Source: the human T2T-CHM13v2.0 reference genome, Homo sapiens
Direction: 5' to 3' (one strand)
Assembly (NCBI RefSeq): GCF_009914755.1
Contig: NC_060938.1
Length of the DNA: 64,000 bases
Position 1 is the stretch's first letter. The number at the start of each line of letters is the position of its first letter. Positions 38,585 to 62,603 of this stretch are shown here, piece after piece. Made by a program: the position numbers and the translations under genes. The notes under the pieces are model-generated. The model did not search any database, was not told the origin of the DNA, and worked only from the letters and a program-made list of their open reading frames with translations.

Positions 38585-40180
38585 CATATCACATTAAAAC
38601 TTATGTAGGATTATTAAGTGGTTGGTACTTTTCTAAGTGCTTTATGTGTATAAACTCTAATACTCACAAACCCTATGATAATAGTTATTATTTCATTTTA
38701 CAGATAAGGAAACCAAGCCACTTACCCAAAATCCCACATCTGGTACACACCTAAGTAGTCTGGCTTCAGAGTCTAGTTTTAACCACTACACTGTAATGTT
38801 TCTACTTTTTGAATAAAGCATGTCTCAATTTTCAGCTTTAATTTCTAAATATAGAAATAAGCACTTTATCATGATTCATATCACTGAACAGTAGAAACCA
38901 ATATTAGGTCTTTTAAAATTAACCAGTGATAATGCTACTATGTATACACATGTAGTTGAAAAGACCCATTTATAATATGGAACATTTTTTATGTTGAGAA
39001 TTCTAGTTTGTCTGAAAGTTAGACACATTAACTATAAAGTCAAATTCATTTTTTAAACTGCCTTTAGCTGATTTAAATTATCCCTATCCTGAGATCCGTT
39101 TTTAATGAACAGATGTCAATATGAGGCATTCAAAGTTGAAAACAAAAAGGTAATAGGGAACTTTGTCATACCATCAATACTCAGAATTTTTTTAAATGCT
39201 TCTGTTGATAATCTGCCCCAAGACAGTTTTGTATTAAAGAACTAAAATTACTCAAAGTTCCACAGCAGAATTTTTAGAAATAAAACTTTTGGCTTCTCAT
39301 ATTACCTGATCTGATGAGATTTCTGTATCAAATACAGAAGAATCAAATAAATTCAATCCAGGTGATCTAGAAGTATAACTCATAAGAAAAGAAAGTCCAG
39401 GGGATTCCTTTTCTGTTTGAACTTCAGGTACTGCATTTCTATTTCTGTTACTGAGAAATAAGAAATTATCAAAATGTTAAAAATCTATTATTAAACACTG
39501 AATACTGGTAAGCATCATAAGCAACAGCATAGAGGTGAGAATTAGCATAGTAGGGAAATGTAGGAAGTAGTTATTGAAGTGACAATCCTATCGAGAAAGG
39601 ATTGTATGAGGTGGAGACTAATGTTAAATAAAGTTAAATAAGGCATAACTTACTTATTCTTCACAAGAACCCTATGAAATAGGTACTATTACTATCATTT
39701 CCATTTTACAGTAGGGAATTTTGAAGCATAGAAAGGTTAAATGATTTGCTTAAAAGAATAATAAGTGCCAAAGGTGGCAGGTGAATGCAGCAATCACGAT
39801 TCAAAGTCCAAGCTCTTAACCTTGACACTATACTGTCTTCAAGATTTTGAATGCCAGTTACAAGATTTTAGTGTTGATGAGAAGCCAGCCATTACAGTGA
39901 TGTATAAGGAAGTTAAATTATAATATGATTTGGGAAAAATAATTAGACAAGACAGTTTATACCAGTGGTTAAAAGCATGGATTCTAGAGCCAGAACGGCC
40001 TGGGCTTAAATTTCTATTCTAATGTTGATTAGTTGTATCACCTGTGATTCTGTTTCCTCTTCTGTAAAATAAGGATAATAATGTACCTACACCTAATAAG
40101 GCTGTTGTGAATATTAAATGAGCAGTATTTATAAAATGTCTAGAGCAGTGCCTTGCACAGTTTGTTGTTTGTTAAATTTA
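38585..40180. mobile_element. Several MIR fragments (about 38585-38795, 39620-39840, 39950-40180) flanking exon 16
   Basis: MIR core motifs attttacagataaggaaac and tttcctcttctgtaaaataaggataata. Confidence 0.55.
39306..39450 (-). CDS. C14orf39: SIX6OS1 exon 16, NRNRNAVPEVQTEKESPGLSFLMSYTSRSPGLNLFDSSVFDTEISSDQ
   Basis: 145 nt, cag|T...CAG|gtaat. Confidence 0.94.
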
Positions 40181-40731
40181 ATAGAAATCTGATGATACTG
40201 CCATAACTATCTCTATTACCATAAATGAGTCACTTAACTTTACAGATGATAGTTTTCTCATCCATGGGGAGAGGTCTTAGCGTATGAGCTCACATTATTT
40301 TACAGTTCTCAGGTTTGATGATGAGTTCCATTTCGAATGTGCTGTGCTTGAGTCAACAGCATGACATTCAAATCCATAACTCTTATTAGCAATTTAAAAT
40401 ACGGAAGTAGAGTACAGGTCTGATGCAAAACAACCCTGATGCAGTGAATTCTGCTTGACATATGTTTTAGAGAAACCTCAGGGTTGTTAAGGAAGATAAT
40501 GGACTAAACATAAAGGTTAAGTGCAGCACTATTTTCTTGGCTGCAAACTACAAATACGTGGTTTCCAAAATTTAATAATCATGTTAGAGATATTTATGCC
40601 TAAAGAGCTTGCTTAATAAAAATGGCAAGTCTTGCTTCAGACACTACAACATATGAAGAAATGACTGATGGAATATTAATTGATGATAAGTCTACAATCT
40701 ACCATATGTGACAACAGCTTTTTAGCTTGAC

Positions 40732-40860
40732 TTTTTTTTTTTTTTTTAATAGAGTCTCACTATGTTGCTCAGGCTGGATTCAAATTCCTGGGCTCAAGGG
40801 ATCCTCCTCCCTTAGCCTCCCAAATAGCTGGGACTACAGGCACATGCCACTATGCTAGGC
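40732..40860 (-). mobile_element. FLAM/Alu monomer
   Basis: Single Alu arm with poly(T); TSD TTAGCTTGAC. Confidence 0.82.
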
Positions 40861-41222
40861 TTAGCTTGACATTTTAAATTTTCTTTATCCTTTGGAAAAA
40901 TCTCAAATCTACACACTATTGCTTTATAAGTACGTGGGATTTATGCCATCTTCAGCTAAATGTTGCAGGAAAAATGGGGAAGAGGGTCTATGAAACAGGA
41001 ACAGCAGAGTATTAATAATTGTTAAAACAGGTATTAATAATTGTTAAAACAGGGTGATGGGTAAATGGAGGTGTGTTATATTAGTCTTTCTCTTCTTTGC
41101 ATGTCTGAAATACTACATAATAAAAACTTGTTAAAGGTACTAAGCATTTTACTATTCCTATCAGTTATTTATGTAATTCAACATACAAATAATTTAACAA
41201 TAGTTATTAATTAAAATCCTAC

Positions 41223-42289: not shown

Positions 42290-42790
42290 TTAAAAAAATT
42301 TATTGATGCATAACTGTACATAGTTTTGGGATACATGTGATAATTTAACACATTCATGTAATTTGTAAATATCAAATCAGTGTACTTGGGATATCCATCA
42401 CCTTAAATATTTGTCTTTTCTTCATGCTAGAAACTTTGAATTATTCTCTTCTAGCTATTTTGACAGGTACAATAGATGGCTGTAAGCCGTAGTCACCATA
42501 CTGATCTAACACAAGGCCTTATTTCTTCTCTCAAACTATATAGTTGTATCCATTAATCAGCTTCTCTACGTTCCTTCTTCCCCACTACCCTTCCTGGACT
42601 CTGGTAACCACCAATCTATCCTGTATCATCTTGAAACCCGCTTTTTTAGCTCCCACATATGAGTGAGAAGATGTGATATTTGTCTTTCTGTACTTGGTTT
42701 ATTTTGCTTAACATAATGACCACCAGTTCCAACGATGTTGCTGCAAATAACTAAATTTCACTCTTTTTTATGGCCGAATAATATATTTTT
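42290..42790 (-). mobile_element. L1MA 3' end fragment
   Basis: gctcccacatatgagtgagaagatgtgatatttgtctttctg motif. Confidence 0.7.
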
Positions 42791-50339: not shown

Positions 50340-50651
50340 CTAGATTATTAAATAGTACTACTTTAAATCAATGCTGGAAACAGAATCAAGTATCTTCCCC
50401 AATGTTTAACCTAAACTTGTAATTTAGAAAATCAAGTCTACATGAATTTTTAATTTAAATTAAAATACGGAATTATGAAATTATTTTAAAACTCTTAATT
50501 CCTTACTATATAATAGCTTTACAATAACTATGAAGATGAAATGACAAAAGGCCAACTGACAAAACTGTACCTTTATAATGGGTTACCAAAGAAGACAGAG
50601 TGGTTGAGAAGACAAAGAAACCAGCCAATGTAGTTAATCTAATATAATGTA

Positions 50652-50783
50652 TTAGGTTGGTGCAAAAGTAATCATGATTTTTGCCATTACTTTTAATGCC
50701 AAAACCATTATGTAATGGTAAATGCCATTAAATTTTAATTAAACGCAATGGCAAAAACCATGATTACTTTTGCACCAACCTAA
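50652..50783. mobile_element. MADE1 (Hsmar1 MITE) with expanded centre
   Basis: TIRs TTAGGTTGGTGCAAAAGTAAT at both ends, TA TSD; 132 bp versus about 80 bp consensus. Confidence 0.92.
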
Positions 50784-51200
50784 TAGTTAATTTAATCTGC
50801 AGAGCCACTGAATGAAACTTGATTCAAATATCTCAGTGACTAAGTTATAGATACTATTAGCATAAGTCTTTTACCTGCCTAAGTCACACATATTGATAAT
50901 CAACTCCTCAAATGAAAAATATGTAATTTTTCCTCCTCCTCTAACAGCTGTGCAACCAGGCCAGAACACTTTTTTTGAAATTTATTGTGTGAATAATTCC
51001 TTTCTCAAAGAGAAAAAAGTTACGTATAGAAGACATATTTTGTTTGCTCTCAGAAAGATTCAAAGCAGTACTCTCTTGAGTTTATAGGTCTCCAGTATTG
51101 TTTTTACTTACACCAAATGATAAATAAAATTGCTTCCTTCTATTTCTTCTGTGTGTTTGCAAAAAAAATGATGTTTTTGAATAACAAACAGATATTATAC

Positions 51201-52825: not shown

Positions 52826-53821
52826 CTAAAAAGACAATTGGGAACACAAAATAAAATAATTACTTGCAAAGCAGTAAAAAAAGATATGCTTTATCTTATG
52901 TTTTTTCTATATAATCATAAGATTCATATTTTTGATAGCATTTACTATCTTCTATTTACAGTTATTAAAACAAAAACAAAATTAACAATAAATCACACCC
53001 GTTTAACTTTTCCTTACAATTCCATTGGCAAATGTAGATTTTAACAAACTCCCATCTTTTTAAAAACAGATAATCATAAGCAAAGTAGACATTGATTCCT
53101 TACATTAAGGACAGTTACCATATATTTTAAAGGAAATGGCATCTACTTTCTTCTGTTTACTAAAATGATATTACTGTTATTTGGTACCTCATACTTAATG
53201 AAAGATAAGTATACAGTATTTAACATAATTTTCAAAAATTTAGAAAATCAGGTATCATAGTCAAATTTTTCTCAGAATTTGGAAGCGACTTTGATGGGTT
53301 ATCATAGCTATGTAAATAAAAGCCACAATTTCATGGATGACATCCAAATGTTTCCAAGAAAAGTTTAAAGGCTAAACTAGTTCTAGCCTAGCTCGCTAAA
53401 GATTATAGTCATATATTTTTCAAGTTTAAATTCTTTATTTACTACCTTTTTAAAAAACACTGGCGTAGATCTTTTAATGCCTTTAAAATCCTGTTACTAT
53501 GTTGCATCTTATTCCTTCCTCATGTTCTCTCCTCAGACCTCAAAGAAAGCTAAACTATTCCCCAAAATATATTCAGTACCTAAATATATATATTAAATTA
53601 TATACAAATTAATATAAAATATATTAATAAAATTAATAAAAAATATAAATTAATATATTCAGTACCTAAAATACCTTTTGGCTCCAAAGGTAATCTAAAT
53701 TATCTTAAACCTTTCTCCACATTAGGCTCTCTTAAAAATAGCTCTTCTAAAACTGTCAACTAACATACCATTATACTTATACATTAATACACATATTAGA
53801 AATATATAACAAAATATATAC

Positions 53822-53942
53822 CTGGTTTAAATAATTAATTTCTATTTCCATTTCATCTACTTCTTTCTTCAATTCGGATGAACTTTTGGTAAGATTGCTG
53901 GCATGTTTAAGAATATCTTGTGTTTCACATCTCAAATTAACA
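53822..53942 (-). CDS. C14orf39: SIX6OS1 exon 8, VNLRCETQDILKHASNLTKSSSELKKEVDEMEIEINYLNQ
   Basis: 121 nt, aag|T...CAG|gtata; phase 2/0. Confidence 0.93.
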
Positions 53943-55707
53943 CTTTTTATGTTAAGGAACTATGTCATATAAGTAAATTTTATATTTATAATATATGTGC
54001 CATATCAGAAATGATTAATATTATGTGACATCATTTATATGTATGTTTCATATAAACAGTAAGCAATATTAAAAACAGTATCTGAAAACAGGAGAATAAT
54101 ATAAACATTTGGCAGACTAACAGATAATTTATTGTTTATGTTATATACTGAGCTTAAAAAAACATTTCATACAAAATATTTGTTAGGATTATTTCAGTTA
54201 AGTATTTTCACAGGGTAGTTTTTTTTTTTTTTTTTTTTTGCTTTTTAAATCAAAGTTCATTGTGTCACTTGGCATAACTAATAAAACATAATTCAGGCCC
54301 AAATTTAACTTCTTATGCTTCCATTATTTATTTGTTCAAAGACAATATTTAAAGTATACCCATTTCAAGCCAACAACAGTATGCTGGAGAAAAACAAAAT
54401 CGACCAAATTTCCCTTTTCTTGCTCTGTAAGGCTCATCAGTGTACCCTACAGAACTCAAAAGACAGGCAGATCTTCGACTTGGACTTTCTACTTGAACTG
54501 GATTTGTGCCCAATTTCAAGTAAAAAATCCTCAGCTATTAATACATTCCACGTGGTTATTAGCTAATACAATGTCCTAAATTATAATCCATTTAGGAGAA
54601 TTTGAAAATGATAGAATAGTGACAGTTAACAAGAATTCCAGAGAAGATTAATCAGGGCTTTCCTATTCTGCCTTAAAATATGCATGATTTATATGCTAGA
54701 ATATAAAATTTCAAGTGAATCATGATTTATAAGTCTATTATTATCAAGTTTCCATTAAAATGTTAGGTACAGATAATTAAATCCTAATCTTCAAATCTTC
54801 CTACCTCCATTCACCTCTTCCTGTTTGTCATGCAACCTTATATGTCATCCCATTCCACATCCAACTCCCTAAACCCTTGCTATACCAGCGTCTACTAACT
54901 TTGGCCCCTTCCCACTGAGAAGTTAAAGCGCAAATGGGCAGCAAATGAACAACAAAAAACAGAAGAGACTAAAACCAAAACATGGAAAAAGCTAGCAGCA
55001 GAAGAGTTAAAAGGATGGTTTAGAATGAAGCAGACAGAAAGCAAGGTAGGATGTGGGGATAAAGAAGACTTAGTACAAACAGTGGAGTTATAATCTGATA
55101 GGAAAGCATATGAAGGATTGTGGAGGTTGAAAGAGGATTAAAGTTTCAAGTTCATCATCAGGGAAGATCTCTCTGACAAACAGGTGAGACTTAGACCAAT
55201 TAAGAATTACTTAGGCATCTATTACAGTGGTACTGTATTAGAATTATTTATTTACATGTCAGTCTTCCCTACTAAACCCAGAGCTCCTTGGAAGAGAGCT
55301 CTGTATCGTCTTCAGTATTGCCTGGCATAAGGTAGGTTTCCAGTGATGAATGAATAAATGTAACTCACCTCCTTTGCACCTTCCATTCTAACAAGTAATA
55401 AGCAATTTAACTGGAACTTTCTTCGGTAAGACAGACCAATATAACATTTTCATTGGTTTGGTTCCTAAGACACGCCACTTAAACCCAAATACATATGCCA
55501 TTTTATTCTCACCAAAGTTGCTTGCTTCTGATCACATGAATATACATGAAAATGAATCCAAGATGACCTTTAAAATTACTTTTTAAATATTTTAATTAAA
55601 CACAAAACAAATCCATGTTATTCTCACAAAGGAAACACAGTAACAATTAAAATACAAAATAATGCTTATCTAATAAAAATTATAAGTACAAATACTATTG
55701 TGGATAC

Positions 55708-55750
55708 ATGTTTAAAGTCCATTTAGTAAGTGATGGAAAGGGAGCAGGCA
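55708..55750 (-). CDS. C14orf39: SIX6OS1 exon 7, VPAPFPSLTKWTLNI
   Basis: 43 nt after a 92-nt intron; cag|TG...AT|gtatcc; phases consistent. Confidence 0.92.
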
Positions 55751-55842
55751 CTGAAAAATAAAGTCACAGCATAAGCTGATTATTATATTCTTTTCATTAC
55801 AAAGATATCATAATTAAAACAATATAACAAAAATATTAATAC

Positions 55843-56030
55843 CTCGAAATTTCATAAAAATTGTTTCATTCATTTTTAATTGTTCAGTACATGCCAACAC
55901 TCTGCTTTGAATTTCTTCATGTTCTCTTTTCTTCTCATAATATTCACGTGAAAAGGGTGTTTCTGAGTATTTTAGTTGGTACTGCTTCAAAACTTCTTTA
56001 TACTGACATATATAATCATGATACATTTCT
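55843..56030 (-). CDS. C14orf39: SIX6OS1 exon 6, EMYHDYICQYKEVLKQYQLKYSETPF...IFMKFR (coiled-coil region)
   Basis: 188 nt, cag|A...G|gtatt; corresponds to ORF 55814..56026; recognised SIX6OS1 peptide. Confidence 0.96.
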
Positions 56031-56698
56031 CTGTTAAAATTAAAAGAAATGATGTTTATATAACAACAACAGATCTAAAAACTTTGTGAATACACTGTTA
56101 AAGTCTACTAAACATAAAAGGCAAATCAAATGTCTTCTTATTCTTGCTTCCCTCAATATTGTCTGCCCTTTAGACTTTCCTTAACTCCACCACACTTCTC
56201 AACTTGACTCTTTTTCTTCATTACCTGAGTGATTCACTTCTTAATTCTATTCAATTTAACTCCTACTCCCACTATTTTAATGACGCTATTCTTCCCAAGG
56301 TCACCAATGATCAAATTTGTCCAACTGAATGATCTCTTTTTAGCACTCATCCTAATTGACACTGCAGAACCTGGTTCTTCTGATCACTTACTCCTTGTGG
56401 AACCTCTATCTTCCCTGGCTTCTGAGTCTCTACTCTCCCAAGCTCAGCTACTTCTAAAACCATATCTTTTTAATCTTCAATTTTCATTAGCTAAAATTAT
56501 CACATGAAGTCATGTTCTATGTATTAGAACTCTGTGTTCACCATCAAATGTACCCCGTAACTATTTTATGAAGAAAATTTTATCACAGTTTAGAAGAACT
56601 CTACTCCAGCTCCAATAGTAGTGGATGGTCATCTATTTAGGCACAAATCTTGAGTGAGACAGTTAATTCTTGCAAAAGGACATTAACCTTTTTTTCTT

Positions 56699-59658
<2,960 letters not shown>

Positions 59659-59704
59659 TAACCTTTTTTTCTTATTTGACCTGTGCTCGATTCTACAAGA
59701 ATCA

Positions 59705-60022
59705 AAATTATGATGGTCTATGGGCCAAATCTAATCTGCCACCTATTTTTGTACAGCCCATGAACTATGAATGATTTTTACATGTTTAAATTATTGAAAA
59801 AATCAAAAGAATATTCCATAACACATTAAAATTATATGAAATTTAAACTTCAGTATCCATAAATAAAGTTTTATTAGAGCATAGCTCATTTATTTACATA
59901 TTATCTGAAATTCTCTCGTGCCATAATAGGAGAGTGGAGTAGTCACGGCAGATGTTGGCCCACAAAGGTTAAAATATTAATACTTACTATCTGGTCCTTT
60001 ACCAAAAAAGCTTGCCAACTCT
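59705..60022 (+). mobile_element. MER58-like hAT element
   Basis: tatgggccaaatct...ctatctggtcctttacc aaaaaagcttgccaactct. Confidence 0.7.
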
Positions 60023-62187
60023 AATCGAAAACATTGAAAATGTTAAATCCAGTTCTTTATAGAAAATATATTCTTAAATCTTCTTTTTCCCCAATTATTA
60101 TCAAATACTTAGTTTCAAAAAAATTCGTAGAAAAATTTTTGAAAATATATAGTCCTTACATTCCTCAAGATTTTCTCATTTCTTGGATCAAGGTATACTC
60201 TATGGGGGAGTTTCTTAAAAGATACCCTGAGGATTATCTCACCTTAGCAGATTAGAGAAGAGCAAGTTTCAAAAACTGCACACATGAGAAGAAAAGTAAG
60301 GATAACAGCCCTGTGCTAGTCAGCGGGTCTGAATCTTAAGAAAGTTTTAATTTCTGAATATTACTAAACTGTCCCCTTTAGCAAGGAAAAGCAGTTGAGC
60401 CCCAAACAAGCTCCTATTCCTCTAAACGCATATTTGCTAATTAAGACCCACTTACTATTTAATCGCTTGGGAAAAATGGTCCAGGGAAGAAATACCTATA
60501 AGAAAATTAAGCCTGGGTCACCAGTTCCAGGTGAGATGACTATGCCACATCCACCCTATTCATACTGTATATTCATGCTCACTCTTCTAACATACTCCAT
60601 ATAGAAACTCTGGCAGAGCCTAGCATAGCTAAGTCATAGTTAAACAAGAGCCATTATTATCTCATCTAAGCCAGCAACACTATTTTTCATGAATGACTTG
60701 AACAGGGATGGGAGATTAGGAGAAACAAGTAATTGGTGCCTCTACTTCCTCCATTATCCATGAAACCAACAAATGAGTTATTTTCCATTTATAAATGCCT
60801 GGTATTGAAGCATCAATTCAATTAAGCTATGTAGCTGGTTTAAGAAAGAAACAGACAACTGTTTTCACTTTAATACCTTCAGTTAGCTCACAGAAGTCCT
60901 CTATAACAAACACTGTTAGAGAAGTACATATTTTAACTGGTTTGCTTTAGCCTCTCACAGAATCATTTTTAAGAATTAATGTTTTATAGTCATGACTTAC
61001 ATTGACAGATGCTATAAGAAGCAGTTATATATACTGTGTTTGGGGCTGGGGGAGGTCACTGAAGCACACTGCACAATTTCCCCTTTAGAGGACCCAGAGG
61101 AGAAATTTCTCTCAAACCTCAGGAAAAGCCTCTACTTATCCTAAGCAATTGACCTGTTTTTTTAAATGAATATTATGAATCCCACACTGATTATATTTCC
61201 ACAATGCCTTGACTACTAGGAATTTGAAAGCTTAATTCGTGCCTATATCTAACAAATGTGCGGGATACATAGTATGAATTTCTAACTTCATCAAAGGCTT
61301 CAACTTCCTATATTTTCCTTACTTCCCTGCAGCCTTGATTTTTAATCTAGTTTCTTTAAACACTATCCTTTCAAGATGATTATTTAGTCAAATCATCTAA
61401 AATTCTTTTTTAAATGAAGCAGGATGTATAAATGACAAGACAAGTCTCCTTCACTGATCCCACCCTCTGCCTACCCTCTAGATGATGGCGTACTCCAGCT
61501 TTCTCCTCTTTTTGCTCCATACATTTCCATGGGCAATCTCATGTATTTCCATGATTTCAAAATGAAGTCTATATCTATAACTTTAGTCCCTACCTTTTCT
61601 TAAGACTTGTCTTTGAATATATAGAGTATTGCATTCTAGATTTTGCACGTTTTAGTTACAATATAAAAATAGATACTGTTCTCATCCAATTATATTAAAA
61701 ATAAAAACATTTCAATGTCTTATATTAGGTGAAATTTTTATGCTATATAATGTGTTCAAAGTCTCTTGTCTTGTTTCATTACATTCACTAATTATATTTA
61801 ATCCCCAAGACAATGTGATTATACATATAAGAAAATAAATTCATACAATTATTGGTGTTTCTCTATTAGAATATAACCACTCCATTAAATCAGCTGTCTA
61901 AAAAACAGAAGTTTGATATAAAATACCATTCAGAAATCAATATCCCAAATTTGTTATAAGCTAATTCTACAGGTAACTATTCCCCGAGATGTTTGCCTAA
62001 ACAGTTTACTCATAAAGACCATTAATTGATGGACTCTGCTATAATAATTGCCACTGAGAAACAGTTTATATCTAAGGCCATATCTAAATATATCTAGGGT
62101 TAGAGAGAGCTTTACAACAAGTAGGTAGATGTTCCACTGCACCCAAGGAGTCCAAAACACTACATTTACTTAAAAACAAAAACTCCT

Positions 62188-62540
<353 letters not shown>

Positions 62541-62603
62541 TTACGCACCATGTCCTAATAATACAAACTTATAGAATTGATAAACTTCATATAAGTACTA
62601 TAC

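What the first reader, a model, noticed from the sequence alone, without database searches (positions are those of the whole stretch)
53943..55707. Intron 7 looks like a minor-spliceosome (U12-type) intron with a degenerate 5' site
Seen (minus strand): the 5' site is CAT|GTATCCAC, a very poor U2 donor that matches U12 GTATCC at +1 to +6 but not TT at +7/+8. The 3' end is TTCCTTAAC-ATAAAAAG|, a perfect U12 branch sequence with the branch A 10-11 nt from the acceptor and no polypyrimidine tract. The intron is phase 2. Known: these are hallmarks of U12 introns, which often splice slowly. Inference: SIX6OS1 output in meiosis may depend on the minor spliceosome, or this intron is part-way through U12-to-U2 conversion.
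Basis: partly seen in the sequence, partly recalled or inferred. Interest (0 to 1): 0.75.

Follow-up and report, generated by a model that had tools for sequence, protein, structure and literature searches.

The report
Known minor-spliceosome intron in SIX6OS1

Summary
On the minus strand the intron (window 53943-55707, 1765 nt) starts CAT|GTATCCACAA and ends GTTCCTTAACATAAAAAG|TG. It is in phase 2, and the annotated coding parts joined give an open 510-codon frame.

It is the clear outlier among the gene's 13 introns in the window. It has the weakest U1 duplex (-1.3 kcal/mol), the strongest U12 duplex (-10.0) and a purine-rich 3' end. Both motifs falling at one intron's ends by chance is about 4e-6 per intron.

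It is already known. Supplementary tables of Olthof et al. 2019 (MIDB, PMC6717393) list ENST00000321731-C14orf39 and mouse 4930447C04Rik as a minor intron in both species. The 5' core (GTATCCACA) and branch core (GTTCCTTAACA) are identical in the two.

AC at +7/+8 is a rare but catalogued variant: 18 of 1329 TATCC strings. It cuts the best computed U11 and U6atac duplexes from 6 to 3 pairs.

Mouse identity, a T at -1 and no pyrimidine tract argue against ongoing U12-to-U2 conversion. Dependence on the minor spliceosome in testis was not shown by anything I could read.

The parts
55696..55710 (-). 5' splice site CAT|GTATCCACAATA (intron +1 = 55707). U12-type GT core at +1..+6, A and C at +7/+8, T at -1.
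   Evidence: The best U1 duplex is -1.3 kcal/mol, the weakest of 13 introns, and is out of the normal register. U11 and U6atac each pair with only +4..+6.
53951..53959 (-). Branch point sequence TTCCTTAAC. The adenines are at 53953 and 53952, that is -11 and -10 from the intron's 3' end.
   Evidence: RNAduplex pairs TTCCTTA with U12 nt 19-25 and leaves the second A bulged; at -10.0 kcal/mol it is the strongest of 13 introns. The MIDB BPS score is 88.7.
53943..53950 (-). 3' splice site region ATAAAAAG|, purine-rich with no polypyrimidine tract. The AG is the first AG downstream of the branch motif.
53943..55707 (-). Intron 7 of NM_174978.3 (C14orf39/SIX6OS1), 1765 nt, phase 2, GT-AG U12-type.
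   Evidence: It is listed as a minor intron in Olthof 2019 Table S1 (hg38 chr14:60469654-60471416, 1763 nt) and Table S2. An Rfam scan of 53700-56100 found nothing at threshold.
55708..55750 (-). Exon 7, 43 nt, upstream of the minor intron. It is preceded by the 92-nt U2-type intron 6 (55751-55842).
   Evidence: 43 nt is not a multiple of 3, so skipping it shifts the frame.
53822..53942 (-). Exon 8, 121 nt, downstream of the minor intron.
   Evidence: 121 nt is not a multiple of 3. Skipping exons 7 and 8 together (164 nt) also shifts the frame.

Best explanation
Intron 7 of C14orf39/SIX6OS1 is a genuine GT-AG U12-type (minor) intron.

Most likely mechanism; every step here is inferred from the sequence and from established knowledge of minor splicing. 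The U11/U12 di-snRNP recognises the intron as a unit. U12 snRNA pairs with the perfect TTCCTTAAC and bulges the second A as the branch point, 10 nt from the 3' end. U11, with its 48K protein reading +1..+3, binds the GTATCC core. U6atac later replaces U11 on +4..+6. The 3' AG is chosen by its short distance from the branch rather than by a pyrimidine tract and U2AF.

The A and C at +7/+8 remove the usual extension of the U11 and U6atac helices. The 5' site is therefore a weak member of its class and probably leans on the strong branch site.

Failure to remove the intron would truncate the protein. Retention brings a stop 4 codons after the junction, and skipping exon 7, exon 8 or both shifts the frame. 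Full-length SIX6OS1 should therefore depend on the minor spliceosome in meiotic cells.
For: Sequence.

Within-gene controls over all 13 introns in the window. Intron 7 is the only one with GTATCC at +1..+6. It has the weakest U1 duplex (-1.3 against -4.0 to -13.8 kcal/mol). It has the strongest U12 duplex in its last 40 nt (-10.0 against -4.0 to -9.6). Its pyrimidine fraction is 0.50. The snRNA sequences were taken from the window's own genome.

Chance: about 3.8e-6 per intron.

Published classification: Olthof 2019 Table S2 gives status 'Both'. Human 5'SS CATGTATCCACA scores 97.6 and BPS AGTTCCTTAACA 88.7. Mouse CGTGTATCCACA scores 92.6 and TGTTCCTTAACA 93.0. Table S1 lists the intron's coordinates in both species. 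That paper's criteria include a minor GT-AG 5'SS score over 50 and at least 10 points above any other 5'SS score, plus a BPS score over 65.

Class-typical context: phase 2, where U12-type introns are biased against phase 0. The -1 base is T, and a -1G marks the minor-like introns that do not respond to minor-spliceosome inhibition.

Consequence of failure.
Against: +7/+8 are AC, not TT. The best computed U11 and U6atac duplexes fall from 6 pairs (-4.5 and -5.7 kcal/mol for a GTATCCTTT site) to 3 pairs (-2.3 and -3.4). Several U2-type introns of this gene give equal or better unconstrained U11 or U6atac duplex energies, so that measure alone does not discriminate.

The MIDB 5'SS score seems blind to +7/+8: ACTGTATCCTTT and ACTGTATCCTAG both score 100. 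The high score therefore does not vouch for the tail.

No experimental evidence was seen. The main text of the Rnu11 germ-line knockout paper (PMC12956336) names neither Six6os1 nor 4930447C04Rik, and its supplements could not be read. About 45% of expressed minor introns were unresponsive in published inhibition datasets.

The gene name was not found in the held supplements of the 2024 re-classification or of the intronIC paper, so its class there is unknown to me.
Confidence: 0.93

Rival explanations
1. The intron is an intermediate in U12-to-U2 conversion (a 'minor-like' or hybrid intron) that either spliceosome can remove. On this reading the AC at +7/+8 is the first step of decay.
For: The +7/+8 tail departs from TT and halves the U11 and U6atac pairing. 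A at +7 is rare among catalogued sites: 65 of 1329 TATCC strings. Class conversion is an accepted model.
Against: Mouse has the identical GTATCCACA and GTTCCTTAACA, so the tail is old and stable rather than drifting. Nothing has moved towards U2 type: -1 is T, the U1 duplex is the weakest of 13, there is no pyrimidine tract and the branch motif is perfect. Phase 2 is the class-typical phase, and conversion is thought to favour phase 0 with -1G.
Confidence: 0.04
2. It is an ordinary but very weak U2-type GT-AG intron, and its match to the U12 motifs is coincidence.
For: The termini are GT-AG. Other introns of this AT-rich gene also have weak signals: intron 10 has a pyrimidine fraction of 0.45, and introns 5 and 15 have U1 duplexes of -4.0.
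Against: The joint chance of both motifs at the right places is about 3.8e-6 per intron. The U1 duplex of -1.3 is out of register. The last eight bases are ATAAAAAG. Both motifs are conserved in mouse.
Confidence: 0.02
3. The annotated junction is wrong and the real splice sites lie elsewhere.
For: None found. I could not look at RNA-seq junctions.
Against: The annotated junctions give an open 510-codon frame, against 53 and 29 stops in the other two frames. The same intron is in Ensembl's canonical transcript as used by MIDB, and at the orthologous place in mouse. None of the alternative exons in the gene table touches this junction.
Confidence: 0.01

Closest known systems
GT-AG U12-type (minor) introns as catalogued in MIDB (Olthof et al. 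2019, PMC6717393), which lists this very intron
   Same: GTATCC at +1..+6, a TTCCTTAAC branch motif about 10 nt from the 3' end, no pyrimidine tract, phase 2, no -1G, and conservation in mouse. The intron is listed by transcript and coordinates.
   Different: Nothing in kind. The tail at +7/+8 is AC, where 1039 of 1329 listed TATCC strings continue TT and only 18 continue AC, two of those being this intron's human and mouse entries. The T2T copy is 1765 nt, against 1763 nt in the hg38 list.
Other catalogued minor introns with GTATCCA at the 5' site: PPP2R2A, CFAP44, mouse Ubl5 and PCNX3 in MIDB Table S2
   Same: A at +7 with an otherwise canonical U12-type core, and a listing as minor in at least one species.
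   Different: Their branch scores in the rows I saw run from 74 to 92. Here they are 88.7 in human and 93.0 in mouse. I could not test over the whole table whether a strong branch site compensates for the weak tail.
'Minor-like' and 'hybrid' introns of Olthof et al. 2024 (PMC11347168), proposed as transitional between the classes
   Same: A departure from the full minor 5' consensus.
   Different: The unresponsive members of those classes tend to have -1G and U2AF1 binding. This intron has -1T and no pyrimidine tract. I could not see its class in that scheme: the gene name has no occurrence in the held supplement.

Membership tests
U12-type (minor) intron, GT-AG subtype | 5' splice site core |RTATCC at +1..+6 | tested here: met
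   GTATCC at 55707-55702 on the minus strand. It is the only one of the gene's 13 introns in the window with it.
U12-type (minor) intron, GT-AG subtype | Extension of the 5' site consensus (TT at +7/+8) that lengthens the U11 and U6atac helices | tested here: not met
   AC at +7/+8. The best computed duplexes have 3 pairs instead of 6. Catalogues do not treat this as disqualifying: 65 of 1329 listed TATCC strings have A at +7, and the MIDB score appears not to use these positions.
U12-type (minor) intron, GT-AG subtype | Branch point sequence TCCTTRAY close to the 3' end. Roughly 10-20 nt is my recollection; intronIC searches -55..-5. | tested here: met
   TTCCTTAAC at 53959-53951, with the second A at -10. 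The U12 duplex of -10.0 kcal/mol leaves that A bulged.
U12-type (minor) intron, GT-AG subtype | No polypyrimidine tract between branch and 3' splice site | tested here: met
   ATAAAAAG precedes the junction, and the pyrimidine fraction is 0.50 over -25..-4.
U12-type (minor) intron, GT-AG subtype | Poor fit to the U2-type 5' site (U1 pairing) | tested here: met
   The U1 duplex of -1.3 kcal/mol is the weakest of 13, and -1 is T.
U12-type (minor) intron, GT-AG subtype | Passes a published PWM classifier | tested here: met
   I did not recompute it. Olthof 2019 Table S2 gives human 5'SS 97.6 and BPS 88.7, and mouse 92.6 and 93.0. The paper's thresholds are 50 and 65. intronIC itself was not run.
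U12-type (minor) intron, GT-AG subtype | Orthologous intron keeps the class in other species | tested here: met
   Mouse only, from the published table: CGTGTATCCACA and TGTTCCTTAACA, status 'Both'. No other vertebrate genome was available to me.
U12-type (minor) intron, GT-AG subtype | Removal depends on U11, U12, U4atac and U6atac, and the branch maps to the motif's adenine | not testable with these tools
   The main text of the Rnu11 germ-line knockout paper does not name the gene, and its supplements could not be read.
Minor-like / hybrid (conversion intermediate) intron | Features usable by the major spliceosome: -1G, a pyrimidine tract, and orthologues of mixed class | tested here: not met
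   -1T, no tract, and the weakest U1 duplex. The mouse orthologue is minor with an identical core. U2AF1 and ZRSR2 binding was not checked.

The most novel reading that the evidence does not exclude
The AC tail at +7/+8, conserved between human and mouse, makes this an unusually weak U11/U6atac substrate that is held up only by a perfect branch site. Its removal would then be especially sensitive to minor snRNA levels. One paper reports those levels as barely detectable in leptotene-zygotene spermatocytes and surging in pachytene (PMC12956336, passages). The intron would thus act as a timing gate on full-length SIX6OS1, and so on central-element assembly of the synaptonemal complex. Variants in its 5' site or branch motif, or mild minor-spliceosome defects, could then be an unrecognised cause of azoospermia or ovarian insufficiency.
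Probability: 0.08. Interest if true: 0.55.

Novelty: already known. Interest (0 to 1): 0.1.

Why it matters
C14orf39/SIX6OS1 encodes a central-element protein of the synaptonemal complex. [quoted passage not shown]

One of its introns needs the minor spliceosome, and mis-splicing there truncates the protein. This is practical knowledge for reading intronic variants near 55702-55707 and 53951-53959. It also bears on the meiotic phenotypes of minor-spliceosome mutants. As a discovery it adds nothing to the 2019 catalogue. No paper in the searched library discusses the gene together with minor splicing in its text, so the link sits only in supplementary tables.

Tried and rejected
Full-text searches found no paper for C14orf39 with 'minor intron', C14orf39 with 'U12', or 4930447C04Rik with 'minor spliceosome'. 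SIX6OS1 with 'spliceosome' gave 5 papers, none on minor splicing judging by their titles and abstract openings.

One of those 5 (PMC11550311, passages read) reports aberrant Six6os1 splicing in Bcas2 and Hnrnph1 knockouts, and cites the same for Srsf1. The passages do not say which exon.

Supplements: the gene name is absent from the one small file held for the intronIC paper and from the one 2.6-million-character file held for the 2024 taxonomy paper. In Olthof 2019 it occurs in 3 of 8 files (S1 coordinates, S2 sequences, S3 expression) and not in the 5 others, S4-S8. By the main text, S5, S6 and S7 concern minor-intron retention, comparison with flanking introns and alternative splicing. I did not open those files, so I draw no conclusion from its absence there.

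Earlier findings of this scan were not open.

An Rfam scan of 53700-56100 gave only a sub-threshold sR52 match (19.2 bits against a cut-off of 50, E = 0.51), which I read as chance.

Unconstrained U11 and U6atac duplex energies do not separate intron 7 from the U2-type introns, so I dropped them as a classifier. I use them only to compare this 5' site with a TT-tailed one.

Whether the 2007 U12DB already listed this intron could not be determined. No vertebrate genome other than the window's own was available, so conservation beyond mouse is untested.

Full report
What is there. On the minus strand, exon 7 of NM_174978.3 ends ...TTTAAACAT and the intron begins GTATCCACAATAG, with +1 at window 55707. 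The intron ends ...GACATAGTTCCTTAACATAAAAAG at 53943, and exon 8 begins TGTTAATTTGAG. The two adenines of TTCCTTAAC sit at -11 and -10 from the intron's last base. The annotated AG is the first AG after the motif. The intron is 1765 nt. It is intron 7 because 4 of the 18 exons lie upstream of the window.

The joined coding parts in the window, anchored on the annotated stop, read 510 codons with no internal stop. The other two frames have 53 and 29 stops. With 1210 coding nt downstream, the intron is in phase 2.

Is it more than chance? The bare motifs are not enriched in the window. GTATCC occurs 11 times on both strands against 19.9 expected, and TCCTTAAC 4 times against 3.0. What is improbable is their placement. 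On the gene strand 7 of 3154 GT are GTATCC, and 7 of 4041 AG have TCCTTAAC with its second A 8-35 nt upstream. Both at one intron's ends has a chance of about 3.8e-6, or 5e-5 for the 13 introns.

Within-gene controls. I took the snRNA sequences from the window's own genome by Rfam model. The best matches were U11 at 137 bits on contig 1, U12 at 158 bits on contig 22, U6atac at 146 bits on contig 9, and U1 at 175 bits. I then computed RNAduplex energies for all 13 introns.
- Intron 7 has the weakest U1 duplex: -1.3 kcal/mol and out of the normal register, against -4.0 to -13.8 for the other introns.
- It has the strongest U12 duplex in its last 40 nt: -10.0, against -4.0 to -9.6.
- In that duplex TTCCTTA pairs with U12 nt 19-25 and the second A is bulged. 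That is the textbook geometry as I recall it.
- The pyrimidine fraction over -25..-4 is 0.50, and the last eight bases are ATAAAAAG.
- It is the only intron of the 13 with GTATCC at +1..+6.

One result goes against. Unconstrained U11 and U6atac duplex energies do not single out intron 7 (-2.3 and -3.4), and several U2-type introns score as well or better by chance pairing. That measure is therefore no classifier.

The 'degenerate' tail. U11 and U6atac each pair only with +4..+6 of this site, giving 3 pairs. A site ending TTT, as most catalogued sites do, gives 6 pairs (-4.5 and -5.7 kcal/mol). So the tail does weaken both snRNA helices.

It is a known variant, however. In Table S2 of Olthof 2019, with mouse and human strings pooled, TATCC occurs 1329 times. 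The continuations are:
- TATCCT: 1210
- TATCCTT: 1039
- TATCCA: 65
- TATCCAC: 18

PPP2R2A, CFAP44, mouse Ubl5 and PCNX3 are other listed examples with A at +7.

Already known. Olthof et al. 2019 (BMC Genomics, PMC6717393) built the Minor Intron DataBase with position-weight matrices. I read passages of its main text and parts of its supplements. Its Table S1 lists ENST00000321731-C14orf39, chr14:60469654-60471416, 1763 nt, minus strand. It also lists mouse ENSMUST00000044000-4930447C04Rik, 1829 nt.

Its Table S2 gives MIG status 'Both':
- Human: 5'SS CATGTATCCACA (score 97.6) and BPS AGTTCCTTAACA (88.7).
- Mouse: 5'SS CGTGTATCCACA (92.6) and BPS TGTTCCTTAACA (93.0).

One of the paper's criteria is a minor GT-AG 5'SS score over 50 and at least 10 above any other 5'SS score, with a BPS score over 65. 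The 5'SS score appears not to read +7/+8, since ACTGTATCCTTT and ACTGTATCCTAG both score 100. The high score therefore says nothing about the tail.

Table S3 shows the human gene at 15.9 TPM in one tissue and below 0.6 in the seven others. I did not read the column headers.

No paper in the searched library mentions the gene together with minor splicing in its text. The knowledge sits in supplementary tables only.

Conversion in progress? The evidence is against it. Mouse shares GTATCCACA and GTTCCTTAACA exactly, so the tail predates the primate-rodent split. Nothing has moved towards the U2 type. The -1 base is T, and -1G is the feature associated with minor-like introns that escape minor-spliceosome dependence. 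The U1 duplex is the weakest in the gene, there is no pyrimidine tract, and the branch motif is perfect. Phase 2 is typical of the class, and conversion is thought to favour phase 0.

How it most likely works (inferred, not shown). The U11/U12 di-snRNP recognises both ends cooperatively. The perfect branch site and the protein-read +1..+3 (passage on U11/U12-48K) make up for the short U11 helix. U6atac then takes over +4..+6. The AG is chosen by distance from the branch.

If the intron is not removed, a stop follows 4 codons after the junction. Skipping exon 7 (43 nt), exon 8 (121 nt) or both (164 nt) shifts the frame. Full-length protein should therefore need the minor spliceosome.

What is not shown. 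I saw no experimental test. The 2026 study of germ-line Rnu11 ablation (PMC12956336, passages read) reports meiotic defects. It also reports minor snRNA signals that are weak in leptotene-zygotene and surge in pachytene. Its main text names neither Six6os1 nor 4930447C04Rik, and its supplements could not be read. About 45% of expressed minor introns were unresponsive in published inhibition datasets, so class membership does not guarantee a measurable effect. The gene name was absent from the held supplements of the 2024 re-classification and of the intronIC paper. Conservation beyond mouse is untested.

Verdict. The finding is a correct reading of a real U12-type intron, already catalogued and ordinary for its class apart from a rare 5' tail. 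Interest is low.

Noticed in passing
window 55708-55842 (-): Exon 7 is only 43 nt and is preceded by a very short U2-type intron 6 of 92 nt. A tiny exon is thus bounded by a major 3' site and a minor 5' site, a setting where cross-talk between the two spliceosomes during exon definition would matter.
   Followed up: no
window 54219-54239: A run of 21 T on the + strand (A21 on the gene strand) lies inside the intron. The T2T intron is 1765 nt, while the hg38 entry in MIDB Table S1 is 1763 nt. A homopolymer length difference is a plausible but unchecked cause. A coordinate convention in the table is another.
   Followed up: partly
window 53946-53951 (-): The bases just 3' of the branch motif (CATAA) are complementary to U12 nt 12-16, so RNAduplex extends the U12 duplex across an internal loop. 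In AT-rich sequence this is probably coincidence. That part of U12, as I recall, pairs with U6atac later in the cycle.
   Followed up: no
window 50340-51200 (intron 10), 56031-62603 (intron 5), 39451-41222 (intron 15), all (-): Several U2-type introns of this gene have weak signals. Intron 10 has a pyrimidine fraction of 0.45 before CTAG|. Introns 5 (CAA|GTATAG) and 15 (AAT|GTAGGA) have U1 duplexes of only -4.0 kcal/mol. This may relate to the reported sensitivity of Six6os1 splicing to loss of Bcas2, Hnrnph1 and Srsf1.
   Followed up: no
window 40486-40493 (-) and 42329-42334 (-): A second TCCTTAAC lies in intron 15 and a GTATCC in intron 14, both on the gene strand. They are in different introns and not at annotated sites. 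Counts match chance.
   Followed up: no
window 55120-55178 (+): A sub-threshold Rfam match to the archaeal C/D box family sR52 (19.2 bits against a cut-off of 50, E = 0.51) inside the intron on the opposite strand. I read it as chance.
   Followed up: no
G000 genome-wide: The U6atac model matches 43 places above its cut-off and the U1 model 42. The tool calls these counts lower bounds. I take most to be pseudogenes or variant copies. I assumed the top-scoring U11, U12 and U6atac copies to be the functional genes from their scores and chromosomes alone.
   Followed up: no
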